Below, piece after piece: positions 487 to 33,755 of a DNA stretch of 33,755 nt; the stretch's first letter is position 1, and the number at the start of each line of letters is the position of its first letter. This stretch comes from Sanchytrium tribonematis (lineage: Eukaryota), in NCBI GenBank assembly GCA_018985235.1, contig JADGIG010000042.1, positions 1-33,755 on the forward strand. The letters are read 5' to 3'. A model generated the notes under the pieces. The model was given only the letters and a program-made list of their open reading frames with translations, was not told the DNA's origin and did no database searches. A program made the position numbers and the translations under genes.

Positions 487-2674
487 CTAGATGCTCGCTA
501 ATACTTCACTGGCTTGTTTATACTTCGCAAGTATTTCCTTGACTTTCAACCTTTCTTTCGCAATCATTTCATCTTCCATGAAGAGTTCTTGAAGGTTATC
601 GGGCTTGTAGAGATTCTCAACTAAATTAGGATGTAAATCAGTAGTCACTGCATTTACGAGATTATGCATGATGGCTTTTGGGACCATGTCCAAGAGCGAC
701 GAGCGAACAATTTCAAAATAAGATATCATTAGTTTTCTGATCAATTGAACTTCAAATTGTTCCTTTTCACTTAATTCAACTTCTTGTGTAAAGGGTGTCA
801 CAATTCCAGGAACAGGCGATGGCAGATTCGAAAGTGAAAATCCATCATTTGGATTTGACAGTATTGGGGACTTTCTTAAAGTATTAGTGCCAGAGGTCGG
901 ACTAGTATTGGTAGGTTTTTGGTCTCGTTTCTTAAAAAAGTATTGCAATAAAGATTCTTTTTGTTCATCTTCGCCAGATATTGCAATTGCAGGCTCTTCA
1001 ACATTGGACTTTTCCGAAAAAGTATCAAAATTGCTGATATTTGGCCCACGAGGTTGAGGCGATCTTGATCTTTGGCGATATGTAGCTGATCGTTCAGTTC
1101 TTGCCTCTCGTTCGATGCCAGGACTTAAAGACCCAGGTGAAATTTTTGTATTTTTTACACTTGCTTCCATTGCAGCGCCAACTCCGATGAATTCCGGATG
1201 ATTTGTATTTATATATGCCATTTGGATTTTGACCAAACTGGCCACATATTGCCGGCAAGGTTCAAGCTTACCCCTAAGTAATTTGTCTACAATTTCTACA
1301 TTAAACATTGTTACCAGTCAGGCTACTCGCGAGTCTAGGATATCTTTGCAAATCTTTAGTGCAACATTCCAAAGATACTTTAACCAATTCGTCGTAAACC
1401 AAATCCACGCATTTCAAAGCAGGGATCTCTAATCTCTTAAGTTGTGGCTTAATTAAAAGCTCAAAAGCTCTCTCTGGAATAAATAGTGTCGTTCGAGGAC
1501 CCGTTGCATTTCTTATAGCTGTTTTAATGTCATGATCGCTTAACTGATCTAATGGGGAGACTTTTTGTAAATGGTCTGCGTATATTGTATGGTATAGATA
1601 ATATATTCTGGCACCTGCGCACAATTCAAGAGTGTCCGCTTGACCATCTATACTCTTTGAAAACTTTTCACTATAACTACTCAAAATTCTGAGCAATGAA
1701 GCCAGACTGACCTCGTGCAACGGACCAAATTGATCATATTCAACCTGATACTGCGAGGCCATCATAGAAATTTTGGATTTTAGTTCTGGCAATTGCTGTC
1801 TAATGTGAGCAGTGAGAATCTTGTTCAGTAGCTGTAACAAATAAGTGACACCACATTTGTGAGCAATAGAAGGGAAATGAGTGGTAAATAGTTCGTGCTC
1901 AAGCTCTCTAGATTCCACATGAGATTTTTGAAATTCTCCAGGCTTACCTGGTTGGTTAATAACGGCAGTAAATCCATAATAAAGTGGATACGTTTTGCCA
2001 ACAAGAATTTCGTGAAGTGAATGTAGACCCATTTTAGTTTTTTCTTCGTTTTCGTTTCTTAAACTATTGAACAACATGTCGCATTTTGTTAAAACTCCAA
2101 TGGTTCTTTTTCCATTCGGATCTACCATTCTGCAAAGTCTCAAAGCATCGCTAGTAGACAAATCATTCATACACGTTGAAATAGCCAAAAGAAGCGCATT
2201 TTCTTTCTTAGCATAGTGAGAAACTAATTGAAATATTTGATCGTCGAGATCATTTGGTTGGTGAATAGTAGGAATTTGAATTAGACCAGGTAAGTCTATC
2301 AAAGTTAAATTAACAACATGTTTCGAATACAATTTTAAGTAAATCGGTGTTGAGCTAATATGTTGAACACTCTTGGCTACACTAATAAGTTCATTTTGAA
2401 CATTTGCAATTGGGACACTATTTTTCAAATGCAAAAATTCTGCATAGTCTTCGTTTTCACTCGCATCTTCTAAATGCACTAATTGCAAAATTAAAGGCTG
2501 CTTAGTGACCATATCCATACCGATAGGTAATATTTCATATCCACATAGGTGATTTATGAGTGATGACTTTCCGCTACTTTGAGCGCCAATAACTACCAAC
2601 GAAGGTAGATCAACCGATAAATGTAAAGTTTGAAGTTGATTAATTAATTCTATGACATTAAGTGAGGCAGACAT
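487..2674 (-). CDS. DNM1: Dynamin-related GTPase, Dnm1/Drp1-like; two exons (2674-1315, 1295-487), 722 aa
   Basis: G1 GAQSSGKSS, DLPG and TKCD motifs; middle domain ELCAGARIYY and AYINTNHPEFIG; C-terminal GED (LMISYFEIVRSSLLDMVPKAIMHNLVN). The two ORFs join in frame (RYPRLASSLT-E-IVDKLL) after removing a 19-nt intron. Confidence 0.85.
1296..1314 (-). other. 19-nt spliceosomal intron (GTAACAATGTTTAATGTAG), phase 1
   Basis: GT..AG; removal fuses the two dynamin ORFs in frame; contains the in-frame TAA that ends the upstream ORF. Confidence 0.93.
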
Positions 2675-2922
2675 GGAAATGATTATGAAACTGGGATTTT
2701 CCAGCTGCTGTCCATAAATAGACCATTAAGAAATTAAACAAAATAACAGCTAATATTTATTTGTCATACATTTCATGAAAATCTATCATCCAGAATCGAG
2801 AATCGAATGCTATAAACACAAACTAGCACAAACAAAATAGTACAAAAATTGATTGGTGTGGAAGAGAGTCAGGTTTGTAGGACAATGTTATAGATTTTTC
2901 CCTCTAGGGGTATATCCAAACA

Positions 2923-6532: not shown

Positions 6533-6539
6533 AATGCTT

Positions 6540-7793: not shown

Positions 7794-9201
7794 TTACTCA
7801 GTTGGCTCCTCTTCAGGCTGTGCTTCAGCAAGGGTCTTTTTCTCATCTTCAGGATTTGGATCCACCTCTTCGACCACATTGCTAGCATCTTCTTGGAATG
7901 GGATATGGATGGAAAGGTCAGGGGTGAAGTCTTTAATTCCGTTTCCTAAATATATATTAAAAAAGGTTCCTTGTTGAGATACGGTAAAAGCACCAGGCCA
8001 TCTGTGATTTTTAAGAACTACAGTTTTGGATTTTTCTTGTATTCCATGCATCCGAGTAGACCATGAAGGCAAATCAAAGTGGGCTAAATTAAAACTCGTT
8101 ACTTTCATCTTGGTCGATAGAACTCAACAAGCTAGGTCCAATTTCTGGCTTTTCTGCATCAGTATTTGACTCATCGGTTTCTTTCATTTCAGTTTCTTCC
8201 TCTTCTTCTAAATTGACAGATCTTTTCGAAGAAACCCAATTGCATCGGCCTTGAGGTAAAATGTAATTCACCGAATGAACCCAATTTTCTGCTTTAACCA
8301 TTTCTCCAGCGGGTTCAGGCTGAAATTCTGGATTCAGAATAATTTCAGGCTTTGCTTCTTCATCTTCCTTTTCGTCAAAAATAAAAAAATTAATAGGTGC
8401 AACTGATGTACTTGCGTTAATTCTGGCAATTAAAGCACGCAATAATTGTGACTCATTTCCAAAAAATGGCGGGTATCCACGAACGCCATTTTCCAAATAT
8501 CCCGTTAATTGAAATTTTTGGCTTCTAGATGCAACAATATGATGTGGAATGACATCGGGCAATGGCAGCCATTCATCGTAAAGTTTTTTGCAAACAAAAT
8601 AAACATATTTGTTAGGACCTTCATGTTCTTCCACAGGAACAGGTATAGAATGTTGTGCATTTTTAAACCCAACAACAGCACCATAATTTAATTTCTCATA
8701 AACAGACTTATCATAGCTATTCAGATTTTCAGTGAGTTCAGCTTCTACTACATGATAATGACAAGACTTGGCCTCAAATCTACCCCAATATCTACAAGAA
8801 GACAATTTTTTTTGTTCAGCTAATCTTTCAATAGAAATCGCAATTAAATCAAATTCGCTTTTGTCAATCTGTATGTTACCGCATTCCAATAAATATTTTA
8901 ATTTGCATATATCCTGCACAGCTCGTTCTTCTTTGGGTCTAAATTTCAGTAAGTCTTCTAGTTTTTCTTGCTCTGAAATAGTTAAATTTGAAGTTTTTGA
9001 GATTTGCGGTTTTTCCTTTGTCAGAATTCCAAATGCCTCTTTTGGGTTGGCAGGCCTCTCATGCAATATCTTTTTCATGGATTTCACTAAGTGAGCATAT
9101 AGAGATGGTTCAGAATCAAATTCCTGAGCTAAATATGCCTTTGCTTCGTCCAAATTAGAAACTGGCATACAACTCGTTTCAAAGATATTAGAAGCCGACA
9201 T
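7794..9201 (-). CDS. RSPH4: Flagellar radial spoke head protein RSP4/6 (RSPH4A/6A family); two exons (9201-8103, 8083-7794), 462 aa
   Basis: AKAYL...SLYAHL...ILHERP, RYWGRF, GPNKYVYFVC, LPDVIPHHIVASR, LRALIARINASTSVAP, NWVH...ILPQGRC, then after the intron WSTR...RWPGA...NIYLGNG. Confidence 0.9.
8084..8102 (-). other. 19-nt spliceosomal intron (GTAACGAGTTTTAATTTAG), phase 1
   Basis: Removal joins the two RSP4/6 ORFs in frame (IDQDE-T-HFDLPSWSTR); in-frame TAA inside. Confidence 0.92.
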
Positions 9202-12147: not shown

Positions 12148-12181
12148 AAGAAGAATATTAATGTTTCTATAATAAATTTAC

Positions 12182-13129: not shown

Positions 13130-13159
13130 CGTGTCAAAAAAACGTTTCAGAATTGCAAT

Positions 13160-14282
13160 TTATTTTCTATAGTAATTTTGTGGCACAAACGGCATTTTAG
13201 CAATTTCAAAGTCGTAGAGCTTTTCTCTCACTTTAACTTGACCTGTTGTCTTGGGTGGCAAATAGCACATGGCAATATTTTTCTTAAGCGAAGGAGATGG
13301 ACAACCGCTTGTGATTTTTCCAATGATTTTTCCTTCTTTTAGTATTGGTGCTCCCGATCGAGCTGGAACTTTGGGTATTAGTACGCCCACTCTTTTTTTG
13401 AGTACTCCTAGTTCCTTTTGAGATTTAAAAATGTCATATCCTAGAAATCCACCTTCAGCACGTCTTCTCTTACCAACGGCAAACAATAATGATGCCTCCA
13501 GAATCGTTGTAGTCTCATCAATATCATTTCCGTATAAACACAATCCGGATTCCAGACGTAGACTGTCTCTGGCACCAAGCCCTGCAGGTAAAACCCCACT
13601 TTTTATCAGCTTTTCCGCAAAATTCTCAGCTTTGTCATTATCGATACTTACTTCGACACCGTCTTCGCCTGTATAGCTATGTTAAAAATAATTACCCGCA
13701 TCTTGTTACTCTCAAATATGTATCTTCATATCTGACATTTCGGCCATTCATGAAATATAAATTTTTTAAAGATGTTCCCATAATCTTTTCAAATTTTTCG
13801 ACTGCCCTAGGTCCTTGAATGGCTATAAGGGATTTTTGAATCTCTTTTATAGATAACGAGTTAAAATCAGAAACTTTCTGATGATTCGATAAATATTCAA
13901 TTACTTTATCTCTACATCCCGCGTTACTCACAAGGTAGAAATTATCGTCTTTGACCTTTTGCACAATTGCGTCATCCACAATTGTACCTTTTTCGTTGGT
14001 CAGCAAAGTGTACAATGCTTGTCCATCTTTCAATTCATTTATATCTCCACATGAAATTTTCTCGAGAAATTTGACACTGTCTTTACCAGTTATTGAGGTT
14101 TGCAGCATGTGGCTAACGTCAAATAAAGCTGCGTCACTTCTACAAGCCTGATGTGCTTTCGCATGACCTTCTTTGTATACTACAGGTAAATCATATCCGC
14201 AAAACGAGACCATCTGAGCGCCAAGCTTCTCATGTAGCGAGTATAGTGCAGTTTTAAGATAAGAAACTTTGGAAGTAAACAT
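13160..14282 (-). CDS. GCV1: Glycine cleavage system T protein (aminomethyltransferase), mitochondrial; two exons (14282-13696, 13676-13160), 367 aa
   Basis: KTALYSLH, LFDVSHM, GTIVDD, IAIQGP, spliced TRCGYTGEDGVE, GLGARDSLRLESGLCLYGND, ITSGCPSPSL. Confidence 0.95.
13677..13695 (-). other. 19-nt spliceosomal intron (GTAATTATTTTTAACATAG), phase 2
   Basis: Removal restores the conserved TRCG-YTGEDG motif exactly. Confidence 0.96.
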
Positions 14283-16631: not shown

Positions 16632-18342
16632 ATGCCGAATCAAAATAATCTTGGTTCGCCCATTTTAATATATGCGGACCATATAAAATACAAGGGTTCT
16701 GTTATAAAAGGTTACCTTTACACCAAATTTATTCAAATATTAGAATCTGGAAAAATTCCTTCTGAATTAAGTGGAGTATTGCCTCCCCAAGTGGAAATAG
16801 AAATTTATGATGAAAGCCTGCAATTAATTCATAAAGATAACATAAAATTGTCTATGAGTCTTGCTGCCAAATTTACTTTAACAGAGCAGCAAGGATCATC
16901 AATTTTCGAAAATCTGCGTTTAGAACAAGATAAGTTAAAGCTGATTCCTCTGAATTTAAATAATAACCCTTTAATTTTTGTTAACAGAAAGCATGAAAAT
17001 TTTGAACAAAATTGGAGTAATACAATATCTAAAAAGAGGAAAATTATAGAAGAAGTTGAAATTTTTGAGACTACAAAAGAATTGGAAGATATTGATCTTG
17101 ATTTGTACAATATACCTGTAAATACACTTTTTATATCCAAGCATCAAAAAGTCCTTGAAGAAATCAATAAGCGGCTTTCAATTCCAATCGAGACCATCGA
17201 GGAAAGTAAGGTTAAACCGCCTAATCAAGGACACGTACTTGTGCAAACCATTAAATTCAAAAGCAAATTTCCGGAAAAGGCTACCAGTTACGCTACCATG
17301 AATCTATATTCATCCTTAAGTGTTGAGAACATAGAAATTATAATGTACTTTGGTTCTGCAGTAGATACAATTTTAAACGGGTTTAAGTATAGAATACCTA
17401 TCGGAAGGCGCGATAATATACCTACATTTGTTGAAAGAATCAAAATTAGCATGCAGAATTTTTACACGTTAGACTACGAATCAAAATTGAACATAGCCTC
17501 ACCACCTACAAGACCGATACAGACACCCGAACAGAATATGTCAGAAGATCAAAAATCTAATTTGATGCAATACCAACAGCAGATGCAGCAGCAGCAACAA
17601 CAAATTCCTCAGCAAATGCCACAACCGGTTCCACAGATGATGCAACCAGCATATGCAATGAGACCAGTATTTTTAGTTTATGTAGAATTATCCTACCAAT
17701 ATACCTCAAACTGTTGCTACTCAAAACAGCAACCCACAAGGTAGTCCTTCAATGAATAATACACACTCACCCAGACCGATTTTCTCGCCATATAATCGGC
17801 CGTATAGACCACAAATGCAGCAACAACTTCAAAATAATCCAAATTCCAGCCCACTTATGAATGGTCAAAATTACCCAGCTCCACAACACGGTTATCCAGT
17901 ATTCCAACCTACTCCTGGTTATCGGGGGCAGTTTTCACAACAGCAATACTCGCCGCAGCAATTACAACAAATGCAACAAATGCAAATGCAATATCAGCAA
18001 CATATGCATTATCAGCAGCAAATGCAACATCAAATGCCGAATCAACAAATGCAAAATCAGCAAATGCAAAGTCAACAAATGATAAACCAGCAAATGCCAA
18101 ATCAGCAAGTTCAGAATCAGCAAATGCCAAATCAAATGCCAAATCAGCAAATGATGCCACAAAATATGATGCCACAGCAACCAATTATAATACAACAACC
18201 TGTGATGCAGCAACAAATGATGCCACCACAGCCCATTGGCCGTCGTCCTACCGCGACCATGTACCGAAATTCTATAAGCAACATGAAGGCTTCTGGAATG
18301 CAGGTGCCATACCAAAGACCGCCCCAACACCCTCAATCCTGA
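16632..18342 (+). CDS. Spt20-like SAGA subunit with Q/M/P-rich low-complexity C-terminus; two exons (16632-17666, 17686-18342), 563 aa
   Basis: N-terminal ILIYADHIKY...FIQILESGKIPSEL...VEIEIYD resembles the Spt20 domain. A 19-nt intron joins the two Q-rich ORFs in frame. Confidence 0.6.
17667..17685 (+). other. 19-nt spliceosomal intron (GTATTTTTAGTTTATGTAG), phase 0
   Basis: Removal gives AMRP-NYPTNIPQ...GSPSMNN, in frame with ORF 17752..18342; matches the consensus of the other eight. Confidence 0.88.
17941..18230 (+). repeat. Low-complexity Gln-rich coding repeats (QQMPN/QQMQN units)
   Basis: Recurrent cagcaaatgccaaat / caacaaatgcaa units. Confidence 0.85.
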
Positions 18343-19258: not shown

Positions 19259-20192
19259 TTATTTGTAACGTTCAGCCATTGCTTTAGCCATTGATACACC
19301 AAGCTGCGCAGGACTGTCACAAACATGAGCACCTGCTGATCTAAGCGCCTTTACCTTATCCTCCGCCTTGCCCTTACCACCAGAAACAATTGCCCCTTAA
19401 TAAATTTTAATTACCAGCATGCCCCATTCTACGACCTGGAGGAGCGGTTCTTCCAGCAATAAAGGAAACAACAGGCTTGTTGTTGACGTTTTTCAACTTA
19501 AGATGTTCGGCCGCTTCTTCTTCAGCGGATCCACCAATTTCCCCAATAAGAATAATACCTTCTGTCTCTGGATCATTTAAAAATAACTCGACTGCGTCTA
19601 CAAAATTGGTGCCATTAAATGGATCTCCACCAATACCAATACATAGAGACTGTCCCAATCCTGCTTTGGTTGTTTGGTCCACCGCTTCGTATGTTAGAGT
19701 TCCGCTTCTAGAAACTATTCCGATGTTTCCCTTTTTATGAATTCTACCAGGCATAATCCCAATTTTACATTCTTCAGGTTTTATTATTCCGGGGCAATTG
19801 GGCCCCACTAGTCTCGACTGGGAATTTTTCAAAGCGTCCTTTACATAAATCATATCTTTTTGCGGTATTCCTTCTGTTATAGTGACTATTAAGGGAACTT
19901 CAGCCTCGATAGCTTCAATCATTGCAGCTTTTGCAAATGGCGGTGGTACATATATCACACTAGCATCAACTTGAAGATCTTTCTTTAAATCATTGATTGT
20001 AGCGTAAACTGGGAGGCCTAAGTGTTGAGTACCCGCCTTGCTTGGAGATATTCCTCCTACCATTTTCGTGCCATAATTGATCGATTGTTCGCAATGAAAT
20101 GTTGCAGTTTTACCCGTAAATCCTTGACATATGACATTGGAATTTTTATTGATTTGCAAAGCCTTCAAATGTTGTAAAAATCGTTTTTGCAT
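19259..20192 (-). CDS. LSC1: Succinyl-CoA ligase alpha subunit, mitochondrial; two exons (20192-19415, 19395-19259), 304 aa
   Basis: [36 protein letters not shown], spliced [14 protein letters not shown]. Confidence 0.96.
19396..19414 (-). other. 19-nt spliceosomal intron (GTAATTAAAATTTATTAAG), phase 1, AAG acceptor
   Basis: Removal restores the phospho-His loop GHAGAI and the missing C-terminal 45 residues. Confidence 0.95.
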
Positions 20193-21270: not shown

Positions 21271-21291
21271 TTTCAAGGAGAAACATATTTA

Positions 21292-22247: not shown

Positions 22248-22264
22248 ATTTTACTGTTATCACA

Positions 22265-22829: not shown

Positions 22830-22926
22830 ATTTATTATATTAAAGGCGGTGGCTTGTCAAATTGTCTGGACTATTTTTTGTGACTGGATATGCTAGGTAA
22901 CAAGGCCAAAATTAAAAAGAATGTGT

Positions 22927-23325
22927 TTATTGACTATAGATGACGGGTTTGTAATCCTGATATGAATATTCTACAACAGAACGCGCCAATAACACTAAAG
23001 AATTAAAAGCAATGCTTATTGCACTATATTTTATAGCTGAGAGATTTCCAGACTCGTTTGCGTAAATAAAACTAATCACACTGCAGGAGCAAGAACTAAT
23101 ATGCAAAATCAAAATTGAAACCAGCCATTGTGAAGTCAAACTTGCAGCCTTATTAATAATGTAATAACTAAAATCAAATATTAACAGTATTCCTAGTAGC
23201 AGTCCAAATATAAATGAAATTTCTAATAGCAAGTTTCTTTGAGAGTAATCCATTGTTTTTTTGGTGATTTTTTCCAATTTTTCGAATTCTCTTGGAACGA
23301 CTCTTTCCAATTTTCGTTGTATCAT
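22927..23325 (-). CDS. Small membrane protein with about 3 TM helices, unknown function (start at 23325 or 23253)
   Basis: Three hydrophobic helices; stop codon embedded in AATAAA; start ambiguous. Confidence 0.55.
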   Translation of the reverse strand: MIQRKLERVVPREFEKLEKITKKTMDYSQRNLLLEISFIFGLLLGILLIFDFSYYIINKAASLTSQWLVSILILHISSCSCSVISFIYANESGNLSAIKYSAISIAFNSLVLLARSVVEYSYQDYKPVIYSQ

Positions 23326-23338
23326 GTCATAAAACAAT

Positions 23339-24043: not shown

Positions 24044-24112
24044 TCCTTGAAATCTCCTTATTTTAGATTGACATGCTAATCCCAGAAATATCATTGGAAA
24101 ATGCGTAATAAT

Positions 24113-25603
24113 TTAATTTACTAAACTCGAATATTTTTTAGCTGCTTTTAAATATAAATGTCGGTTTGGTTTAAATAAGCTCATTAGATGCTGCCAAATT
24201 TCAGGGTCATTGGAATCTTGAGCAAACTTAAGAATGGTTTTCGCTGAATTATCTTCGTAAAAATGGACGCATTTGATTAATTCAAAGATGTCATTGTATC
24301 TGAGCTTTGGATGATTCAAGATCATCATTATACTTTCATCACATAACATCGCATCACTTATCAGTCTATAAACCTTATCGGATAGTTTAAAATTGTTTTC
24401 AGCAAACTGATTAATTATCAAATCAATATCTTTCTCTTCAAATTTCAGTTTGCTAATTAGATCGATCTTCGTTCCCCAAGAGTAATCGGACTGCAAAACC
24501 AATTCAACAGATTCAGTCTTTAATTTTAGAAACGCCTTTTTACAACCCATTCTAGCTCCTAATTCGTAAATTCGGGTAATGCAATCTGAATCAGAATTTA
24601 TGAGCTCAACAATGTATCTGTGGGAATAGACCTGGTCTATAGAGAGTAGCCAATTTTGAAAATTAACAAATATTTCAGAATTATCACATAGCAATTCATA
24701 TTCTTTAACACAATCTACAAAAGTTGCTTGAGAGTTATTATATAATATTTCAATTAGTTTTGACTTGAACGAGTCCTCGCCAAACTTTTTGAAGCATTCC
24801 AAACTAATTTCCTTCTGTAAATGCTTAAGTTGAGGAATGAAGTCCAATTGTAAAAAAATATCATCTAATAAAGACACAAATTTCGCGACATCATCAATGG
24901 TCATAAGAATCACTTTCTTAAATAAAACATTGAAAACCTCGCTGTAATTTTCTATTTGTTTCATATTCTGAAGTTGCTGTGGCGACTTATCAAATTCCAG
25001 ACTGGTGTTGCTAATTAGTTTTGATCGTTCGTAAACTTTTTGTATATAAATACACTCTAATTTTGCAAAAGAGATTAACATATCAACGTCTTCAGTCACA
25101 AACCTTAGTCCTCTAAGCAAAACCGCCTTGGCACCCATATGATTTTGACGATCAATCATTTCATATTCTGCAGATTTTAGATACGGTGAAGCATTATTTG
25201 GAAAAAGACGAATCATCGTTGTCAATTGCGAAGATGCCCTGTTAGACATTTTGTTTTTGATAAGCCATTCAACAAATGAGGAATGATTCTCAATACTAGG
25301 AAATCTATAACACAACTTAGAGTACAAATTCATAATTCTATTTTTGATCGACCTGTCAGCCCGTGTGGACTTGTAGCTTTCATTTCCAATGGTATTTGCA
25401 TACCTCATTGCCTCGATACTCTTCTCGTAATGAATATATTGGTCATAATCAGATTCAAGAGTGATCCGGCGATGAATCCTAAACTCGTATTTCTTCCTCA
25501 TTTCGATGATTTTATCTACTTGTTCCTGGCTGAAAGCATTTTTATCCTGCAGTTCTTTTAAATCCGGAAGCATTTTTTCCAAATGATATTGTGCAACCTC
25601 CAT
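24113..25603 (-). CDS. UTP6: U3 snoRNA-associated protein 6 (HAT repeats)
   Basis: QYHLEKMLPDLKEL...IIEMRKKYEFRI...YDQYIHYE, AKAVLLRGLRF, FAKLE. Start at ATG 25603 or 25624. Confidence 0.85.
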   Translation of the reverse strand: MEVAQYHLEKMLPDLKELQDKNAFSQEQVDKIIEMRKKYEFRIHRRITLESDYDQYIHYEKSIEAMRYANTIGNESYKSTRADRSIKNRIMNLYSKLCYRFPSIENHSSFVEWLIKNKMSNRASSQLTTMIRLFPNNASPYLKSAEYEMIDRQNHMGAKAVLLRGLRFVTEDVDMLISFAKLECIYIQKVYERSKLISNTSLEFDKSPQQLQNMKQIENYSEVFNVLFKKVILMTIDDVAKFVSLLDDIFLQLDFIPQLKHLQKEISLECFKKFGEDSFKSKLIEILYNNSQATFVDCVKEYELLCDNSEIFVNFQNWLLSIDQVYSHRYIVELINSDSDCITRIYELGARMGCKKAFLKLKTESVELVLQSDYSWGTKIDLISKLKFEEKDIDLIINQFAENNFKLSDKVYRLISDAMLCDESIMMILNHPKLRYNDIFELIKCVHFYEDNSAKTILKFAQDSNDPEIWQHLMSLFKPNRHLYLKAAKKYSSLVN

Positions 25604-25750
25604 ATAAGTTTGAAGGAGTTGCATTAATTACGCTACTACTTGACAAAAACACCGTTTTTGCACTCTACAAACAACTTGAAATTTGAAAGAGGACTAATTG
25701 TTCGCCGTTTGTTGAAACGTCGAAGAAGTTTTCCCCCTCATACATAATTG

Positions 25751-26726
25751 ATGTTCTATCGTATATGGGCTATTTCTCTCGTACTGCTAGCAATTGTTAT
25801 ATTATGGCCGTCTCCGGAGTCTATTAAGACAAGAAAATCACCCACCGCACCGGTGAATGACAAAATCAGATGGCTAATTTTACATGTTGATCAAAATTTG
25901 TTATTAGATAAATTTAACAGAACTTTGGGTTCATTAAATTATAAAGATAATACTCTTTACTTTAACCCGTATACGTACAATTTATGTTATAATTTAGACA
26001 GCGTTAGCTTGCCGTCAGAATGTATCATTCATACAAATTATGAAAATTCTACTGAGCTGCTTACTCAATGCTTAATTGCAACAATGAGGGGGGACATCGA
26101 AAGAAAAGGTGAAGCATTTAAAAGATGGTATGGTGCTTCAGTCCATTTTAGCTACGATGGTGTCTTGGATATGCTCGATATTCTTGACAACTTTGCTTGG
26201 GTCAGCACCGACTTTGATGCGCAAGGTAACCTGTATTTATTTAGATTATTCGGACTATTTTCAAACTCACTATAATAACGATTCTTTGCCGTATAGTGTT
26301 TTGGTTCCTGAGGCGCCATCTGCGCAAGTACCTAGTGTCATAATGAACACCAAAAACACACAAATATGTTTGTCCTCAACTGTATGTGCTAATATCAGTA
26401 CAAGCTGTTTATATTACCCTTCTTCATTCAAAAATGCTACTGTTAATAACACACACTATATATATCAATCGAATCTGAGAAGTTTCAATCAATCTGTCAG
26501 TCTAAAATGTCAAAATACGACTGACCTATCCGGTGATATTATCAATTATAACCCGAACTTATACAAAATTCAACAAAGTATTACAAAATGTTGTAACCCA
26601 GAGATTCTTAAGCCAAATCCAGTCGTTAAAGAGAATGATGAAACTAAATTCAAAGAGAAATCAAACGGCGCATATAATGTTTTCTTGTCTGTGGGTGCAA
26701 TTTTGTTTGTCTTTCTGATTTATTAA
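25751..26726 (+). CDS. Unknown secreted/surface glycoprotein (signal anchor, Cys-rich, C-terminal hydrophobic tail); two exons (25751-26225, 26245-26726), 318 aa
   Basis: Two overlapping ORFs are merged in frame by a consensus 19-nt intron; many N-x-S/T sequons; C-terminal hydrophobic stretch with no cytosolic tail. Confidence 0.7.
26226..26244 (+). other. 19-nt spliceosomal intron (GTAACCTGTATTTATTTAG), phase 1
   Basis: Joins ORF 25748..26275 to ORF 26109..26726 in frame (FDAQ-D-YSDYF); full match to the consensus. Confidence 0.88.
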
Positions 26727-26777
26727 ATAAGAATAAATTTATTTACTTGTCACTCATAATAATTTTTAAAACCTCCT

Positions 26778-28050
26778 ATGAAAGTTGTAGTGTCCTATAA
26801 AGGTACTAAATATAGTTTCGACGTTGCGGGCAATACGATTGGAAAAGATTTTAAACAGAAAGTCTTTGAAAGAACTGAATTACAAGTCGAACGACAGAAG
26901 TTGCTCGTGAAAGGCAAGAAAATCGAAGATGATACAAATCTGAATGATATTTTACAGGAGGGTAGTGTCATCTTTTTAATGGGATCCAATGCTACAATTG
27001 CTGCGCCTAAACCTGTCGAGAAAATGGAATCAGATAAGCCTTCGTCCAAAAAAATTAGCCTTCCTGTGGGTTTGAAAAATTTGGGAAACACTTGCTATTT
27101 AAATGCTACTATTCAATGCTTCAAACTTGTTCCTGAGCTTGTGGATGGTCTGAATCTTGCAAACCCAACTCTTCAATTGCTATTTAAAGAAATGGATAAA
27201 AATGTTGAAAAACAAGAACCCGTAAATCCAATTGTATTTTACACTTTATTTAAAACTGAGTTCCCTCAATTTTCACAAACGCAAACAGTTTCCACCGGAA
27301 TGGGGAATGTTCAGACAAACGCTCAACAAGATGCTTCCGAGAGCTGGAGTCAGCTCTTAGAGTCTTTTTTTCGGAAAAATCCCAAATTGGAGGACCTGTT
27401 TAGAATCCAATTACTAGAAACACACAAATCTGAAGAGTCACCAAGTGAAACCTCGGTCAAAACAATTTTTGAGTCCATGATGAAAATCAATATCAATCAA
27501 ACCACAACTTACTTAGAAGCTGGCATAAAAGACTCGCTCCACAGCCATTTGGAAAAAAGATCTGATGTTTTGAACAAACAAATTCAATTTCAGACAACCA
27601 GCCAGTTCGCATCGTTGCCCAGATATTTAAACGTAAATTTAGTTCGATTTTACTGGAAGCAACCAAGCAATGTGAAAGCAAAAATACTGAAAAGCGTTAA
27701 ATTTCCATTTGTTTTGGATTTGTATGACCACTGCACCGACGAGTACAAAAATATAATTAAGGATTCAAGAGTCAACGCTCTTAAGGACAATCTTAGCAGT
27801 GAAGGGGAAGTAAGTGGTGTGTATGATCTAGTCGGAGTACTGACTCATATAGGAAGATCATCAGATAGTGGTCATTGTACTTTAAAATAACTTAGACATT
27901 GCTTGGATAAAAAAAGATAAGCTTTGGATTAAATGTGACGATGACACAATGAGTGTTGTTGATGAAAATGAAATTATTAAACTTTATGGCTCTGCAGATT
28001 GGCATTCTGGGTATATTTTGTTATATCAAGCCCGACTTGCCAAGAAATAA
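26778..28050 (+). CDS. UBP6: Proteasome-associated deubiquitinase Ubp6/USP14; two exons (26778-27876, 27896-28050), 417 aa
   Basis: N-terminal UBL (ERQKLLVKG), Cys box GLKNLGNTCYLNA, QQDASE, His box GRSSDSGH-YIAW restored by splicing, CDDD, ADWHSGYILLY. Confidence 0.95.
27877..27895 (+). other. 19-nt spliceosomal intron (GTACTTTAAAATAACTTAG), phase 1
   Basis: Removal restores the USP His-box SGHY motif and the C-terminal 51 residues. Confidence 0.96.
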
Positions 28051-28079
28051 ATTTCTAAATCGGACCCTTTTGAAACAAA

Positions 28080-28412
28080 ATGCTGAAGCGATTTTTTTCT
28101 ACTAAGTTTCTCAGAAACGAAATAAAATTTACAGAACAAGCCAAACAAGATTTCAAAGCACAAGCTGAACGTGAACATCACGCTGAGCAACTTGGTGATA
28201 AATGGAAAAAGGCTGCCATTTATGGTTGTGGTCCGTTAGTGGTATTATTGACCATATACAGCTTGAGAAAAGAAATGGAACATCTTTCTCATGCACATAA
28301 AGAAGATACTGAATACGAGTATCTATTTATCCGCAAAAAACCATTCCCATGGGGAGATGGTAAAAAATCATTTTTTCACTCTGATAAATTTAACCACGTG
28401 AAGGGTCAATAA
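28080..28412 (+). CDS. COX13: Cytochrome c oxidase subunit VIa (Cox13)
   Basis: EHHAE...WKK + TM helix + YEYLFIRKKPFPWGDGKKSFFH; mitochondrial presequence-like N-terminus. Confidence 0.93.
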   Translation: MLKRFFSTKFLRNEIKFTEQAKQDFKAQAEREHHAEQLGDKWKKAAIYGCGPLVVLLTIYSLRKEMEHLSHAHKEDTEYEYLFIRKKPFPWGDGKKSFFHSDKFNHVKGQ

Positions 28413-28429
28413 AAGAATGTGATCGTTAT

Positions 28430-30277
28430 TTATTCGCTTAAATGAAGAGATTTTGCCATTTGAACAGTTGAATTTCTGACATTTTTCGACACCTTTAAGG
28501 GTGGATAAACAGACAATCGTAAAACATCTTCAATGAGCTCGTAATTGCCTAAAATGTCAATGTGATCTGCAGTTTTCTTTCCACCTCTCATCATTTCTTG
28601 AGGGTCCAAACTAGATGACTCAATATGCTCATACTCTTTCACAATTACCGGTATTTTTGATGGGTTGTATTTTTTGAGTCGCCAAGCTTCAAGACAAACT
28701 CCAGATAAACTTAATAAATTCACTGTTCCGTCTCCATCGCTCATCTGGACACCGTGTCGGGTGTTGCTTTTTTCGCGTACATAAGTCACATCAATCTGAG
28801 GAGAAGTTTCTACATTACTTAGTAATTGGGCCATGTCTTTATAAAAATATTTCCTTTCAGTTGGCTTGCCATGCCCATAAAAACAGTAAATTTTAAGAGT
28901 ATTATTTAGTTCTGAGGGATGTAAAAATTTTCCAGTTTCAGTTTTTGGCTCTCGGTACATTTTAGGCAGAGCGCTTGCCAGTGGATTGGTCCACGATTTA
29001 ACAATATCATCAGGGTCTGTAAAATTCATGTCTTTGCTAAGTATAAAGTCATGACTGTAGAGATTTTTGATTTGTTTCCATTCTTTCGGCTTGTTAGAAA
29101 ACTCACCCAACATCTCCAAAAGCGAATCAACTGGTAAATTAATATTTTCATTAACAAGAGTAACCATAGCTCCAGAATCAAATCCATAATTGGCAAAATA
29201 AAAGTCAAAATTTTTCTTAGGACAAGATTGTAGCCAAGTTGTAAAACACTTTTGGTACTTACGATCCATAGTATCATCAGCTGATATCCATTCGCTTCCC
29301 CAGACTCTATTACCACCTTTTGGCAGCATTGAGAACATTCCGAACCAGCTCCAAAATAAATCTCGCCTTTCAGCACGATTAAACACAGACTCCAAGATTG
29401 CATTTCCATACGGCCCTAATTGGGCTGTATCTTTCATTTCTCCACTCAAAACGCCCGCAATTAATTTTGGGACACCTAAAAATGGAGCACCGATGTTAAC
29501 TACACTATTAATATGATCACTCACCCAACCATCGTTTTCGGAACCAGCGCCATGCTGTGATTCGACCCATTTTAAAAAATAATAGAACACTAGACCTCCC
29601 ATAGAATGAGTCAAAACCACGGCCTTGAGGCCCGTATGTCTAACCTTATTTTCTATGATTGATTTGAGTTCATTGAAATAGCCATCTCTTTTCTCTAATT
29701 GACTGTGGGCTAAGCGCCAATCGTACACAGCAGCATGAATATCATTGATATCATAGTCTAGAGCAATCAAATTTTCGACTATCCGCGCCCATACCCAATA
29801 ATTACCCATGAAATATTCCGCGGATTCCAAATCGCGAATTGGCCGAACCTTGATACCTTCAGGATCGGTGCCATTAACTAATTTCATATGGTCCATCCAG
29901 CATTGCTTGTTTGACAATAAAGCTAATATCATAGTGGGCGAACCCCAAATTTGATTTCTGAGATAATTTTTTAGGCATGTACTTTTCCAGAGCGATAAAT
30001 GAGAAGTGCCAATTCCTGGGATCAATAGTGTGAATCTTTTTTTGTAAGGTGCCTTATGTTTCTTTTTGTATTTTCTCAAAAACTCTATTGCAGGTGTTGT
30101 TTCTACCTGATTCACACCAAAAATCTGTGTAAAATTTCCACGCATAATATTGTTTAAAAAAAATTGCACCTTGTCCATGTCGTTCGATGGGGACTTTGTA
30201 AAATACACCGCGATTAAAATACCTAGAAAAATACCAAAGAATAGCCGCTTTGATACAAATTTAAAGTACGTTTTCAT
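28430..30277 (-). CDS. LRO1: Phospholipid:diacylglycerol acyltransferase (LCAT family)
   Basis: N-terminal TM, LIPGI, DPEGIKVR, YDWRL, THSMG lipase motif, SGEMKDT, GDGTVNLLS, DHIDILG. Confidence 0.93.
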   Translation of the reverse strand: MKTYFKFVSKRLFFGIFLGILIAVYFTKSPSNDMDKVQFFLNNIMRGNFTQIFGVNQVETTPAIEFLRKYKKKHKAPYKKRFTLLIPGIGTSHLSLWKSTCLKNYLRNQIWGSPTMILALLSNKQCWMDHMKLVNGTDPEGIKVRPIRDLESAEYFMGNYWVWARIVENLIALDYDINDIHAAVYDWRLAHSQLEKRDGYFNELKSIIENKVRHTGLKAVVLTHSMGGLVFYYFLKWVESQHGAGSENDGWVSDHINSVVNIGAPFLGVPKLIAGVLSGEMKDTAQLGPYGNAILESVFNRAERRDLFWSWFGMFSMLPKGGNRVWGSEWISADDTMDRKYQKCFTTWLQSCPKKNFDFYFANYGFDSGAMVTLVNENINLPVDSLLEMLGEFSNKPKEWKQIKNLYSHDFILSKDMNFTDPDDIVKSWTNPLASALPKMYREPKTETGKFLHPSELNNTLKIYCFYGHGKPTERKYFYKDMAQLLSNVETSPQIDVTYVREKSNTRHGVQMSDGDGTVNLLSLSGVCLEAWRLKKYNPSKIPVIVKEYEHIESSSLDPQEMMRGGKKTADHIDILGNYELIEDVLRLSVYPPLKVSKNVRNSTVQMAKSLHLSE

Positions 30278-30382
30278 CCCAATTAATTTGAGAGGGGTAT
30301 TGATAATTTGCACATAGCCTGAATTTAATTAATACATACTGGTTTGAAATTGAATTTCCAGAAGAAAAATCTCTCAAAACTT

Positions 30383-31072
30383 TTATTTTTCGTGTGGATA
30401 GGTAATCTTTTGGTATAGTTCAAAAGAAAATTCGAGTGGTACATTACTTAGCTCGTCACTATCTCGGGTGAATATCGCAAATTGAGTAGCGAATTCCTTA
30501 TCTTTAAATCCACAACCTCTCCACTCATATGAATAGCCGTATGAACAGGCGCTTTTGCTCCATTCCTCAAATTCAATCCTTGTCCATTCAAACTTATGAT
30601 CCAGATTCCTAAATCTATTCCAACCCATCATTTTGTTGAAATCATAATTTGGAGTGCTAATTATAACTGTTTGTGGCCTGTAAGTTTCAAATATAAGTTG
30701 CGTATATGTAGGTACATCTGTGATCTTTAAATGCTCTATGACCTCGATGGACATCAAAATATCTTTTCCAACTAGTCTCGAATCAAACTTTAAAAAGTCA
30801 CCCAGGTACGATTCGATTGTGAGTGGCTTCATTCGAGGATAGTCGATATCACGGTCGGTCACCGCAAGTAGTTCGCTTAGTTCTTTGAGTACAAAATCTT
30901 GCTGATCCACCGCTATTATCTTCTTGACCAATTCAAAATTCACTAATAAACCCAATTGCATGCCACTACCACAACCGAAATCTACCAACGTATCCCGATT
31001 CGAAATACTAGACACGATGTCTTTAACCATATGCTGCCTCTGTTCATTGAGCGGAGTTGGAAATATATTCAT
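30383..31072 (-). CDS. HEN1: Small RNA 2'-O-methyltransferase, Hen1/HENMT1 (MTase domain only)
   Basis: FPTPLNEQR (FxPP-like), DFGCGSG SAM motif, IEVIEH, STPNYDFN, FRNLDHKFEWTR, TQFAIF. Confidence 0.92.
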   Translation of the reverse strand: MNIFPTPLNEQRQHMVKDIVSSISNRDTLVDFGCGSGMQLGLLVNFELVKKIIAVDQQDFVLKELSELLAVTDRDIDYPRMKPLTIESYLGDFLKFDSRLVGKDILMSIEVIEHLKITDVPTYTQLIFETYRPQTVIISTPNYDFNKMMGWNRFRNLDHKFEWTRIEFEEWSKSACSYGYSYEWRGCGFKDKEFATQFAIFTRDSDELSNVPLEFSFELYQKITYPHEK

Positions 31073-31113
31073 GTAAAATGGTCGTACTCCTTGCACAATC
31101 AGTATTAGAATAT

Positions 31114-31713
31114 TCACAAGTTTATTGAATCTAAATACGAAGAAAGAGAGTCACTGACATAAATTGTATGTTTTTTCCAGTTGAGCGGTACTTTAAGATG
31201 CTCAGTCTTAACAGTTTCTCCTAAATTCACTTTCTCTACTTCTAAACCTACAAGCCTAAAGCACTTGACAAATTCAACAACCAGCCCGCTGAGCGTGTTG
31301 CAATAAAATGGCTTGCTGGTCAAAGACTTTTCCCTGGAAAGACCTAATGCGCCAAACCTTTTACAAATAACAACGCCTAATACCACATGAGAATATGGCA
31401 CTCTCTTGATAGAAATGGTAGAAAAGCTTATGAGAAACATTCTTATCATGTTGCAACTAATCAGATCTTTATGCCTAAATAAAAGCTCATGCATAGCGTA
31501 CAAGGTTGCATCCAAACAATTATATTCCTTGAATTCGCAAACTATATGATACCCATCCTCTATCCCGCGCGACTTTACTTTTCTCTGCAATTGCTTAGAG
31601 TAATTATGACCAAATTGCACCTGATGGCTATTATATTCTTTCTGTCTTAACAACTCTCTTATTTCGGAAATGACTTTCAGTGGTTCCATGCCACTGGCCT
31701 TTCCGAAAATCAT
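31114..31713 (-). CDS. VASH: Vasohibin-family tubulin detyrosinase (tubulinyl-Tyr carboxypeptidase)
   Basis: EYN, NCLDA (catalytic Cys), ISF, YSHVVLG (His), FGALGLSR (Ser), LTSKP, TLSGLV, KVNLG. Start at 31713 or 31689. Confidence 0.85.
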   Translation of the reverse strand: MIFGKASGMEPLKVISEIRELLRQKEYNSHQVQFGHNYSKQLQRKVKSRGIEDGYHIVCEFKEYNCLDATLYAMHELLFRHKDLISCNMIRMFLISFSTISIKRVPYSHVVLGVVICKRFGALGLSREKSLTSKPFYCNTLSGLVVEFVKCFRLVGLEVEKVNLGETVKTEHLKVPLNWKKHTIYVSDSLSSYLDSINL

Positions 31714-31806
31714 AGGCTTTTACAAGCATTTGAGGTACAAAATAAATACCGATAGAAGTTAACCATTTCCTGAAATCGCATAGCCTAGATAAGTAAAAAA
31801 GAAACA

Positions 31807-33755
31807 ATGGGGCTTCGTGGCATAACTGCAAATGGCTCGACATTTGAAATCCCAAAGACTCAAGACATGTTAAATTCCATCTTCAGGCCCAAAGAAGTCA
31901 ATTTGTTTGATGTTATTACATTGTCTTGCTTAGTTGTCCAAGCAATTGGCTTTTTTGTAGGTATGCCAAGGTGGTATACAATAACTATGTTTATATTTTG
32001 GAGACTCGCATATAACATAGGTCTTGGTTATATTCTAAAAATGCAATCCGACCACAAATGGCTTTTTTTGTTGGCAAAACAATACCAGCTTTTTGATACT
32101 GCGAAATCATCCCCATTGCAAAAATTTATTAAAACTCAACTTATCAAGAAAATGGGCAATGACTATAAGTATGAAGATGCCCCATTAGAACTGAACGTAT
32201 GGCTTCTTTTTCGAGCTTTAGTTGATATTATTTTATCGAATGATTTTTGTGCATTTGTAATTTTAACGTTGGTGCACGCAGACTATTCTTTTAAAACCTT
32301 TATGGATTTTATGCGACTTTTTATAGGTATCGGGTTATTGGTGTTCAACGTATGGGTCAAGTTGGATGCACATCGGGTAGTTGGAGATTTTGCGTGGTTT
32401 TGGGGAGACTTTTTCTTCCTATTAGATAATCCTTCTCTTTGTTTTGATGGAGTGTATGATGTCGCTCCTCATCCTATGTATTCGATAGGATATATTGGAA
32501 TGTACGGAGCCAGTTTGATCTCTAAGTCGTACACGGTTTTGTATTCCAGTTTATTAGCCCACACTTTGCAGTTTATTTTCTTGGCGGTTGTAGAAAATCC
32601 TCATATTAATAAGATTTACGGTCCTGAAGACTTTAAAAAACAATTTCTGAATTCAAATCCGCATTTATATCCTATAATTAGAACTTATTTTCAAAGAGAT
32701 TTGATTGTTTTTAAAAATTTTGATATTTTTCGCTCTCATGATCTCGCTTTAGTAATGCTAATAGTTTATGCTATTTTAATCGGTTTACTTCACCAATGGC
32801 TTGCTGTCATTCAAGCTATCTTCTGGATTATTATACATTCGTATGGAACTGGACTTGTTTTATCCTTACAAAGCGCTAGAAAATTATGGACAAGGCATTT
32901 CCTCAAAAACGGATTCTCGAACAAAGAAGCATTTGATAATTGGAAAAAGATGTATAACGCTAGTTTATGCCTGATGAATATCAGCGTCGCTGTTGCTGCT
33001 CTTCGCTACTACTCTTTTCCTGACGATTGGAGTTACGGCTCGTCCGCTTTGCAACATGTTGTTGGAGCTCTTTTAATTTTGCTTCAAGTTTACGTCAGTA
33101 TGTCCGTATACGAGGTTCTTGGAGAATTTGGCTGGTTTTACGGTGACTTTTTTTTGGAAACTGTCCCAACGCAACTCACTTATACTGGAATTTATCGCTA
33201 CATGAATAATCCTGATCGGATACTAGGTCAAGCTGGGTTTTGGGGAATCACTGTGATTTGCAATAGTTGGGTTGTATTTTCCATTACTTTATTTTCGTAT
33301 TTAAGCAATAATTTTGTTCTTCAGTTTGTAGAGAAGTATTTAATTATAATTTAGTCCTCATATGCACTATTTGTACGGTAATTTTGTGCGCAAAGAGTCG
33401 GGCGTAGAAAAGACACTGAAAAAGATTATGCCGCCACTGGCCAGGTTTCTTGAGATCTTTGAAAAGGAACGTCATCTCAACAGAAGCCAACCAACACCGT
33501 TAAGGAAAATGTCTGAGATTGTTGATAAGGCCGCACCCAAAATAAGAGATGTTTTTGACAAGGTCGAAGAAACATTAGATACGGCGCATATTAGGCGATC
33601 GTCAAGTTTCGATGTTGTCCCTCTTCCACAATCTAGCCTTGAGATTTATAGCGTCAATTTAAGCAAAAAGCAATACACACTGGCGGAGCCTGTAAAAATT
33701 AAATACACCATCCCCTCGGATCATGGAAAATTTGATTGGATTGCAATTTATAAAC
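31807..33755 (+). CDS. CHO2: Phosphatidylethanolamine N-methyltransferase Cho2/Pem1; exon 1 31807-33335, exon 2 from 33355 running off the window
   Basis: FEIPKTQDM, FWRLAYNIGLG, DFAWFWGDFFF, APHPMYSIGY, VENPHI, second PEMT repeat GWFYGDFF, spliced VENPHMHYLYG; exon 2 is open to the window end (DWIAIY). Confidence 0.95.
33336..33354 (+). other. 19-nt spliceosomal intron (GTATTTAATTATAATTTAG), phase 2
   Basis: Removal gives FVE-N-PHM, mirroring the VENPH motif of the first PEMT repeat. Confidence 0.95.

What the first reader, a model, noticed from the sequence alone, without database searches (positions are those of the whole stretch)
1296..33354. All nine detectable introns are exactly 19 nt: a uniform ultra-small spliceosomal intron system in a fungus-like genome
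Seen in sequence: nine genes are split in the ORF track, and each is repaired in frame by removing one 19-nt GT-AG segment: 1296-1314(-), 8084-8102(-), 13677-13695(-), 17667-17685(+), 19396-19414(-), 22559-22577(-), 26226-26244(+), 27877-27895(+), 33336-33354(+). In five cases removal restores a conserved motif to the residue (GcvT TRCG/YTGEDG, SCS-alpha GHAG/AI, Ubp6 SGH/Y, Cho2 VEN/PH, zinc finger FK/HKQNLNRH), so the boundaries are not arbitrary. No intron of another length was needed. Established: typical fungal introns are several tens of nt or longer and variable. Comparably tiny, near-uniform introns are known from Stentor (15-16 nt) and chlorarachniophyte nucleomorphs (about 18-21 nt), and microsporidian introns are somewhat longer. 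Inference: this lineage independently evolved fixed-length, ruler-like splicing and probably a modified spliceosome. I am not aware of this being described for a fungus, but I could not search the literature. Gene finders and aligners with a minimum intron length of 20 nt or more would miss these introns and split the genes.
Basis: partly seen in the sequence, partly recalled or inferred. Interest (0 to 1): 0.95.

Follow-up and report, generated by a model that had tools for sequence, protein, structure and literature searches.

The report
Nineteen-base introns in a sanchytrid fungus
Nine genes of an algae-parasitising fungus (a sanchytrid) are each interrupted by a segment of exactly 19 bases with splice-site ends, likely true introns and likely the shortest yet seen in any fungus, so they offer a natural test of the smallest RNA loop the splicing machine can cut.

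Summary
Confirmed. All nine segments are 19 nt, GTA...AG, with invariant T12 and A14 (-6, the likely branch point) and never G at +5. Homologues fix the boundaries for six genes: Ubp6, SCS-alpha, radial spoke, GcvT, Drp1 and Cho2. The zinc finger regains its C2H2 spacing; two unnamed genes rest on frame and consensus only.

The window groups 100/100 with Amoeboradix gromovi: Sanchytriomycota, likely Sanchytrium. Relatives break at the same codons. Of 8 read-through tails, 4 fit 19 nt, 3 fit only 22 nt and 1 is uninformative, so the length may differ by species. An uninterrupted 304-aa orthologue, likely from mRNA, matches the spliced SCS-alpha.

No RNA was laid on this DNA, so splicing is inferred, and n=9 cannot exclude a minority of other lengths. 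A. gromovi keeps U1, U2AF, BBP, SF3B1, Prp8 and DBR1 annotations, so a drastically reduced spliceosome is not supported. I found no description in 7 intron-related paper searches; the published sanchytrid proteomes were called intron-blind. The scan had not noted this before; it noted longer mini-introns on other DNA.

The parts
1296..1314 (-). 19-nt intron, phase 1, in Drp1/Dnm1-like dynamin (gene 487-2674, 722 aa spliced)
   Evidence: Pfam Dynamin_M model 3-241 then 243-285; register with human DRP1 463 to 468
8084..8102 (-). 19-nt intron, phase 1, in radial spokehead-like protein (gene 7794-9201, 462 aa spliced)
   Evidence: Pfam Radial_spoke 1-407 then 408-493; best of 14 alternatives; relative P0364 read-through decodes to a 19-nt intron plus the same exon start
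13677..13695 (-). 19-nt intron, phase 2, in glycine cleavage T protein (gene 13160-14282, 367 aa spliced)
   Evidence: 1wsr_A residue 196 then 197 across the junction; Pfam GCV_T 1-185 and 185-254
17667..17685 (+). 19-nt intron, phase 0, in an unnamed Gln/Pro/Met-rich protein (gene 16632-18342, 563 aa spliced)
   Evidence: frame joining and consensus only; no Pfam family
19396..19414 (-). 19-nt intron, phase 1, in succinyl-CoA ligase alpha (gene 19259-20192, 304 aa spliced)
   Evidence: MGHAG followed by AI in 113 and AV in 2 of 115 homologues; best of 24 alternatives; uninterrupted orthologue P0244 also 304 aa, 44 of 49 C-terminal residues identical; four relatives break at the same codon
22559..22577 (-). 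19-nt intron, phase 0, in a C2H2 zinc-finger protein (gene 22265-22829, 181 aa spliced)
   Evidence: removal restores C-x4-C-x3-F-x5-L-x2-H-x4-H (canonical spacing recalled); weak Pfam zf hits
26226..26244 (+). 19-nt intron, phase 1, in an unnamed protein (gene 25751-26726, 318 aa spliced)
   Evidence: frame joining and consensus only; no Pfam family
27877..27895 (+). 19-nt intron, phase 1, in Ubp6/USP14 just after the catalytic-box His (gene 26778-28050, 417 aa spliced)
   Evidence: Tyr follows the GH box in 112 of 117 homologues; best of 12 alternatives; Pfam UCH 1-214 then 216-254; A. gromovi and ENA relatives break at the same codon
33336..33354 (+). 19-nt intron, phase 2, in Cho2 phospholipid methyltransferase (gene from 31807, runs off the window)
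   Evidence: Pfam PEMT match stops at model position 96 of 105 at the junction; the spliced VENPH matches the same motif in the protein's first PEMT repeat

Best explanation
The nine 19-nt segments are likely ordinary U2-type spliceosomal introns shrunk to a near-fixed minimum in a compact sanchytrid fungal genome, with the length likely set by two fixed spacings: 14 nt from the 5' G to the predicted branch adenosine, and three bases from that adenosine to the AG. Shown: the segments, their shared architecture GTA-N-Y-N6-T-W-A-Y-N-H-AG, the exact restoration of conserved proteins, the lineage, and shared break positions in relatives. Inferred steps: (1) the donor is read through little more than GTA, since +5 is never G; (2) U2 pairs with the U-rich T-W-A-Y and bulges A14, giving a 14-nt lariat loop; (3) the first AG after the branch point is taken at -6, a distance at which yeast does not need Slu7, Prp18 or Prp22 for exon ligation; (4) deletion bias in a genome about 94% coding erodes introns down to a steric floor, and because the signals are so short, spacing replaces sequence as the identity element. 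The floor likely differs between species (19 here and in several relatives, about 22 in another). Intron retention would shift the frame and truncate all nine proteins.
For: Invariant GTA, T12, A14, AG and length. Best homologue fit for 19 nt in three profile tests and register with solved structures. Clade with A. gromovi 100/100 in two trees. A at intron +3 in 8 of 8 relative tails; 4 of 8 tails fit 19 nt with T-W-A-Y, and P0364 decodes to AG at 18-19 followed by (A/V)-H-F, as in the window's exon; a first stop at that codon has a chance of about 0.075 per tail. Uninterrupted orthologue P0244 on a 926-bp JGI contig that is almost exactly the 915-nt reading frame, likely mRNA-derived. Core spliceosome and DBR1 annotated in A. 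gromovi. Same design in Stentor: GTA donor, branch A at 10 or 11 of 15 or 16 (PMC9505925 passages). Slu7, Prp18 and Prp22 not needed under 7 nt (PMC3392075 passage).
Against: No RNA from this organism was laid; branch-point use is inferred from conservation only. Three of 8 tails (P0123, P0242, P0363) do not fit 19 nt with A14. P0244 could be an intron-less genomic allele. Only 9 introns, found because they break frames; no genome-wide histogram (no genome held). A coding 19-mer in Ubp6 (27743-27761) matches the loose consensus except at +5, so the motif alone is barely sufficient. No snRNA gene lies in the window, so no pairing partner was examined.
Confidence: 0.8

Rival explanations
1. The introns are real, but 19 nt is only the mode of a wider short-intron distribution (for example 18-24 nt plus some long introns), as in chlorarachniophyte nucleomorphs; the window's uniformity reflects sampling and the invisibility of in-frame introns, with no strict ruler.
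For: n=9 allows up to about 28% other lengths. Relatives' tails point to about 22 nt in another sanchytrid. Nucleomorph introns span 18-21 nt (PMC10245619 section 7). 3n introns do not break ORFs.
Against: 9 of 9 identical, with no 20-nt or other 3n+2 case, which would break frames just as visibly. No 18- or 21-nt sense-strand PWM hit. Both the donor-to-branch and branch-to-acceptor distances are invariant.
Confidence: 0.14
2. The breaks are assembly errors, pseudogene lesions or unspliced insertions bypassed at translation, not introns.
For: No RNA evidence from this organism. The only run that holds the DNA may be its source.
Against: Identical length and GT-AG/branch consensus at nine loci. 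Orthologues up to 43% diverged break at the same codon and begin the insert with GTA. Housekeeping genes are hit, in Ubp6 right after the catalytic box. An uninterrupted orthologue exists (P0244). Contigs of run X1 cross the 12,000-31,999 stretch with no indels (not independent).
Confidence: 0.03
3. The segments are excised by a non-spliceosomal route (Ire1/tRNA-ligase-type cleavage as for the 19-nt Candida HAC1 intron, or DNA elimination).
For: A 19-nt length is on record for an Ire1-pathway intron in Candida (search listing only; that it is the HAC1 intron is recalled).
Against: Canonical GT-AG ends and a branch-like A at a fixed place in 9 of 9. No shared sequence in positions 4-11 (information 0.3-1.0 bit). 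Spliceosome and debranching enzyme annotated in sanchytrids.
Confidence: 0.02

Closest known systems
Stentor coeruleus / heterotrich ciliate 15-16-nt introns (PMC9505925, passages)
   Same: GTA donor without G at +5, AU-rich body, branch A fixed at -6, near-single length, conventional U1/U2/U6 elements retained
   Different: Ciliate, intron-rich (8,806 introns); lariat loop 10-11 nt against 14 here; here an intron-poor fungus (9 introns in about 32 genes)
Mikrocytos mackini and Paramikrocytos 16-17-nt introns (PMC10245619, section 7)
   Same: Parasite, few introns, uniform length, conserved ends
   Different: Rhizarian; spliceosome cut to 17-19 proteins with no U1 listed; no introns in metabolic genes, whereas GcvT, SCS-alpha and Cho2 carry them here and A. 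gromovi keeps U1 proteins
Chlorarachniophyte nucleomorph 18-21-nt introns (median 19; PMC2483917 passages; PMC10245619)
   Same: Same modal length, donor reduced to GT(A)
   Different: Relict green-algal nucleus, intron-dense, reported to show no branch-point signature; here the branch-like T-W-A-Y is invariant in place
Encephalitozoon cuniculi introns, 22-76 nt (PMC3629993, passage)
   Same: Holomycotan parasite, intron-poor, GT-AG
   Different: Longer and variable, strict donor and branch motifs, about 30 spliceosomal proteins, U1 snRNA not identified; not a close relative of sanchytrids
Myxobolid myxozoan and Dicyema introns, lowest median 22 bp (PMC13644364, passages)
   Same: Parasitic opisthokonts with introns under 30 nt and weakened splice signals
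   Different: Animals; longer; reported as a median of a distribution rather than one length
Fixed branch-to-AG introns of Yarrowia lipolytica, Trichomonas and Giardia (PMC2483917, passages)
   Same: No polypyrimidine tract; branch point anchored a few bases from AG in intron-poor genomes
   Different: Strong branch consensus, and in Yarrowia long introns; here the 5' spacing is fixed too and the branch motif is degenerate

Membership tests
U2-type spliceosomal intron | GT...AG ends | tested here: met
   9 of 9
U2-type spliceosomal intron | Removal restores the colinear conserved protein | tested here: met
   7 of 9 with homologue, structure, repeat or motif register; 2 of 9 frame only
U2-type spliceosomal intron | Branch-point adenosine near the 3' end | tested here: inconclusive
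   A at -6 in 9 of 9 within T-W-A-Y; use as branch point not observed
U2-type spliceosomal intron | Absent from mature mRNA | tested here: inconclusive
   No RNA of this organism laid; uninterrupted orthologue P0244 likely but not surely mRNA-derived
U2-type spliceosomal intron | Host encodes the major spliceosome | tested here: met
   By annotation of the relative A. gromovi: Prp8, SF3B1, U2AF35/65, BBP, U1-70K, Sm proteins, DBR1; U1-70K and DBR1 rows also in the stored part of the S. tribonematis sheet. snRNAs not examined
Canonical fungal intron (GTRNGT donor, CTRAY branch, tens of nt; consensus recalled) | G at donor +5 and C at branch -3 | tested here: not met
   +5 is T or C in 9 of 9; position 11 is T in 7 and A in 2
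Ultra-short uniform introns (Stentor / mikrocytid / nucleomorph type) | Length at or under about 21 nt in a one-to-four-base range | tested here: met
   9 of 9 at 19 nt in the window
Ultra-short uniform introns (Stentor / mikrocytid / nucleomorph type) | Holds genome-wide | not testable with these tools
   No genome held; no sanchytrid DNA recovered from IMG/VR or JGI scans
Highly reduced spliceosome (microsporidian / mikrocytid type) | Loss of U1 snRNP and most accessory factors | tested here: not met
   U1-70K, U1A/U2B''-family, Prp40, Luc7, U2AF and BBP rows present for A. gromovi; relative's annotation, not the window's own genome
U12-type (minor) intron | RTATCCTT donor and CCTTAAC branch (consensus recalled) | tested here: not met
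   column composition
Sanchytriomycota | Groups with Amoeboradix gromovi in protein trees | tested here: met
   100/100 in DAHP synthase II (27 rows) and SCS-alpha (21 rows) trees; window GC 35.9% against 34.6-36.3% published

The most novel reading that the evidence does not exclude
Sanchytriomycota splice by a pure molecular ruler: nearly every intron in a species has one length (19 nt here and in Amoeboradix, about 22 nt in a relative), the shortest in opisthokonts. A largely complete fungal spliceosome handles them, having dropped only the step-two distance factors Slu7/Prp18, and the ruler has been reset between species by a change in one or a few spliceosomal parts. Comparing these genomes would then point to the component that sets minimum intron length.
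Probability: 0.35. Interest if true: 0.88.

Novelty: new variant of a known kind. Interest (0 to 1): 0.74.

Why it matters
What sets the lower limit of intron length, and how a spliceosome assembles when donor and branch point are 14 nt apart, is open: humans already need extra factors when that distance is about 50 nt (PMC10158995 passage). The known extreme cases are ciliates, rhizarian parasites and nucleomorphs, all far from yeast. A true fungus with 19-nt introns and a recognisable spliceosome allows residue-level comparison with yeast and human structures and with its sister phylum Blastocladiomycota. A relative with an apparently different fixed length would give a natural experiment on the ruler. 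In practice, the two published sanchytrid proteomes were called with TransDecoder on genomic contigs (PMC8371127 section 18), so intron-bearing genes are truncated or split in EukProt (shown for A. gromovi Ubp6 and SCS-alpha; BBP appears as two adjacent ORFs). With 9 of about 32 genes affected in this window, protein counts, annotation rates and some presence/absence calls for this phylum may need redoing.

Tried and rejected
No whole genome is held, so no genome-wide scan was possible.

The look-up of sequencing runs listed one DNA run, X1, possibly the source, and no RNA holder; this is no evidence on expression. X1 contigs show no indels or intron-like joints over 12,000-31,999 (not independent).

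DNA of relatives was not obtained. IMG/VR scans gave 0 loci (dynamin) and 30 distant viral USP loci. JGI scans gave none (Ubp6) and 80 SCS-alpha loci at 59-71% identity, none sanchytrid; none of the 78 with the MGHAG codons has an intron at this position, but most look bacterial or transcript-derived, so this says little about the intron's age.

Rfam found no snRNA in the window. The tenth consensus 19-mer (27743-27761) was rejected as coding, conserved in relatives. High-scoring 16-, 29- and 31-nt PWM hits lie inside intact long ORFs and would break them; the 27-nt hit in the vasohibin ORF (31475-31501) is in frame and was not tested against homologues. Five consensus hits at 24 nt did not pass the sense-strand PWM threshold. 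A GTG...GAG 19-mer near the end of the Rrp42/43-like ORF was considered and rejected because removing it would delete a segment lying where homologues continue; a search with the overlapping frame gave only chance hits.

Paper searches without a description of sanchytrid introns. Subscription journals are largely outside the library. The main supplementary PDF and one spreadsheet of PMC8371127 were too large to read and could mention introns. Absence of Slu7, Prp18, U1C and Prp39 rows rests on text searches with gene names and KOG/KEGG identifiers that I recalled, in an annotation covering about half the proteins; it is a lead only.
Full report
OBSERVATION. The nine coordinates each give a 19-nt segment starting GTA and ending AG, and removing it joins two open frames. 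Stacked without gaps, the nine share G1 T2 A3, a pyrimidine at +5 (T6, C3, never G), T12, W13, A14, Y15, H17, A18, G19; positions 4 and 6-11 carry little information. A14 lies at -6 from the 3' end. Five introns are phase 1, two phase 2, two phase 0. Every break needs a 3n+1 removal whatever boundaries are picked; if 3n+1 and 3n+2 were equally likely, that has a chance of about 0.004 (hand calculation). The window is about 94% coding, about 32 genes, most gaps under 150 bp (approximate gene list), GC 35.9%. The other genes read as single exons.

BOUNDARIES. I enumerated every GT/GC...AG pair near each junction that restores the frame: 7 to 24 per gene. Where full-length homologues were in hand, the 19-nt choice scored best. 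Ubp6: 394 bits against 373 for the next of 12 and 325 unspliced, with Tyr after the GH box in 112 of 117 homologues. SCS-alpha: 549 against 518, with AI or AV after MGHAG in 115 of 115. Radial spoke: 388 against 372 and 317 unspliced, profile from 108 of the 149 non-sanchytrid hits, those of 420 aa or more. GcvT's upstream piece ends at residue 196 of human 1wsr_A and the downstream piece starts at 197. Dynamin pieces align to human DRP1 residues 463 and 468, bridged by exactly the four residues that the 19-nt splice supplies; the 28- and 31-nt options would delete three or four. Pfam models are contiguous across dynamin (241, 243), radial spoke (407, 408) and Ubp6 (214, 216). Cho2's spliced VENPH matches the motif in its first PEMT repeat. 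The zinc finger regains canonical spacing (spacing recalled). The introns at 17667 and 26226 are in proteins with no family and rest on frame joining and leave-one-out scores of 15.6 and 14.1 (range 11.9-16.6).

OTHER LENGTHS. A consensus scan over lengths 12-60 gave 10 hits at 19 nt against 0.67 in shuffles. This is circular for the nine; the tenth lies in conserved Ubp6 coding sequence and has A at +5. Five hits at 24 nt exceeded the shuffle maximum of 4, but none passed the sense-strand PWM threshold. That scan found no 18-, 20-, 21- or 22-nt sense-strand candidate; the remaining hits are alternative ends of the known introns, lie inside intact ORFs, or straddle a gene end. In-frame introns were not excluded gene by gene. 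Nine of nine still allows up to about 28% other lengths genome-wide. No genome was available.

LINEAGE. The gene set (radial spoke, vasohibin, class II DAHP synthase, Cho2, Eaf7) points to a zoosporic fungus. The nearest named homologues are from Amoeboradix gromovi: 68% for DAHP synthase, 65% for Ubp6, 89% for SCS-alpha. In both trees the window groups 100/100 with A. gromovi and unnamed environmental proteins (27 of 120 and 21 of 121 rows, chosen by me for named taxa). The window's DAHP synthase is itself held from EukProt. The paper describing the phylum has genomes for two species, A. gromovi and Sanchytrium tribonematis, of 10.5 and 11.2 Mb and about 35% GC (PMC8371127 section 6), so the window is likely S. 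tribonematis (inference).

EVIDENCE FROM RELATIVES. Relatives' proteins were called without introns, so they run into the intron and stop, and at phase-1 introns the tail spells the intron. Eight such tails were found. All eight break at the same codon as the window and have an A-starting codon next, that is GTA. Testing lengths 12-30 against the T-W-A-Y...AG consensus: P0245 and P0246 fit only 19; P0247 (A. gromovi) fits 19 or 14; P0364 (radial spoke, 57% identical) fits only 19, and its tail continues through AG at 18-19 into an exon that can read (A/V)-H-F, where the window has T-H-F. P0124 (A. gromovi Ubp6) stops too early to tell. Against a universal 19: P0123, its near-twin P0242, and P0363 have Phe at 12-14 and the stop at 15-17, which fits only 22 nt under the consensus (17 nt with another architecture is possible). 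P0123 and P0363 both list a longest contig of 35,193 bp and likely come from one organism. A first stop at a given codon has a chance of about 0.07. Finally, P0244 from JGI is an uninterrupted SCS-alpha inside the sanchytrid clade, 304 aa like the spliced window protein, 44 of 49 C-terminal residues identical. Its contig is 926 bp for a 915-nt frame, which suits an mRNA better than a random genomic piece; an intron-less allele cannot be excluded. No RNA was laid on the window itself.

MECHANISM. Shown: architecture, boundaries, lineage, shared positions. Inferred: U2-type splicing with the donor read through little more than GTA, U2 pairing to the U-rich T-W-A-Y and bulging A14, a 14-nt lariat loop, and the AG three bases past the branch point. 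Because both spacings are invariant, position rather than sequence likely identifies the intron, and the length is the sum of two steric minima reached under deletion bias, the model proposed for mikrocytids (PMC10245619 section 7). Stentor shows the same design with a 10-11 nt loop and conserved U1, U2 and U6 elements (PMC9505925 passages). I searched the stored part of the eggNOG supplement of PMC8371127, which covers the A. gromovi sheet and the start of the S. tribonematis sheet. Rows exist for Prp8, SF3B1, U2AF35, U2AF65, BBP/SF1 (as two adjacent ORFs), U1-70K, two U1A/U2B''-family proteins, Prp40, Luc7, SNRNP40, Snu13, Sm proteins and DBR1. None was found for Slu7, Prp18, U1C or Prp39 (identifiers recalled). 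So the spliceosome does not look stripped like those of microsporidia or mikrocytids. The missing Slu7/Prp18 rows would fit the geometry, since yeast does not need them when the branch-to-acceptor distance is under 7 nt (PMC3392075 passage; 9 nt or fewer in PMC10158995 passage), but only about half of the proteins are annotated, so this is a lead.

COMPARISON AND NOVELTY. Uniform tiny introns are known from heterotrich ciliates (15-16 nt), mikrocytids (16-17) and chlorarachniophyte nucleomorphs (18-21, median 19, no branch signature reported). Among opisthokonts the shortest I found in print are Encephalitozoon cuniculi at 22-76 nt and myxozoans with a median of 22 bp; the latter 2026 paper names only ciliates, Microsporidia and Dicyemida as earlier exceptions in the passage I saw. 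In PMC8371127 and PMC10459994 the word 'intron' occurs once each, in a reference title, and proteins were predicted with TransDecoder on genomic contigs. Seven searches found no description of sanchytrid introns; subscription journals and two large supplements were not seen. Earlier scan notes report 23-24 nt (Encephalitozoon), 26-32 nt (Rozella) and about 37 nt (Neolecta) introns on other DNA, unchecked here, and nothing on this genome. The phenomenon is thus a known kind, but this looks like a new, independent case in a true fungus. It combines low intron density, extreme shortness, a positionally fixed branch point and a seemingly conventional spliceosome, with a hint that the fixed length differs between species.

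VERDICT. Observation confirmed; interpretation partly supported. Probability that these are spliceosomal introns: about 0.95. Probability of the full best explanation (near-fixed length set by geometry): 0.8. New variant of a known kind; interest 0.74.

Noticed in passing
window 23339-24094 (-) and 22927-23379 (-): The Rrp42/Rrp43-like exosome ORF ends roughly 25-30 residues short of archaeal homologues and overlaps the next same-strand ORF by 41 bp; the stop follows AAA-TAA and the +1 frame continues with a helical-looking stretch. No consensus intron explains it; true truncation, an overlap or a frameshift remain open.
   Followed up: partly
window 27743-27761 (+): A coding 19-mer inside Ubp6 matches the intron consensus except at +5 (A instead of a pyrimidine); a natural negative control or a cryptic splice site.
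   Followed up: partly
P0005, P0123, P0363: DAHP synthase II, Ubp6 and SCS-alpha of a relative all list a longest contig of 35,193 bp, suggesting the window's gene neighbourhood is kept in another sanchytrid.
   Followed up: no
window 7794-9201 (-) and 31114-31713 (-): A radial spokehead gene and a vasohibin (tubulin carboxypeptidase family) gene are retained although sanchytrid flagella are described as non-motile and lacking the central pair; the spokehead gene needs splicing to be whole and is also present in a relative.
   Followed up: no
PMC8371127 supplement 4, A. gromovi NODE_116 p11 and p12: BBP/SF1 is annotated as two adjacent ORFs on one contig, as expected if a tiny intron splits a splicing-factor gene.
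   Followed up: no
whole window: Very tight packing: about 94% coding, several gene pairs 2-7 bp apart, implying overlapping UTRs.
   Followed up: no
P0002, P0003, P0005, P0244, P0245, P0246, P0364: Several unnamed environmental sanchytrid lineages exist in ENA, NCBI and JGI beyond the two described species.
   Followed up: partly
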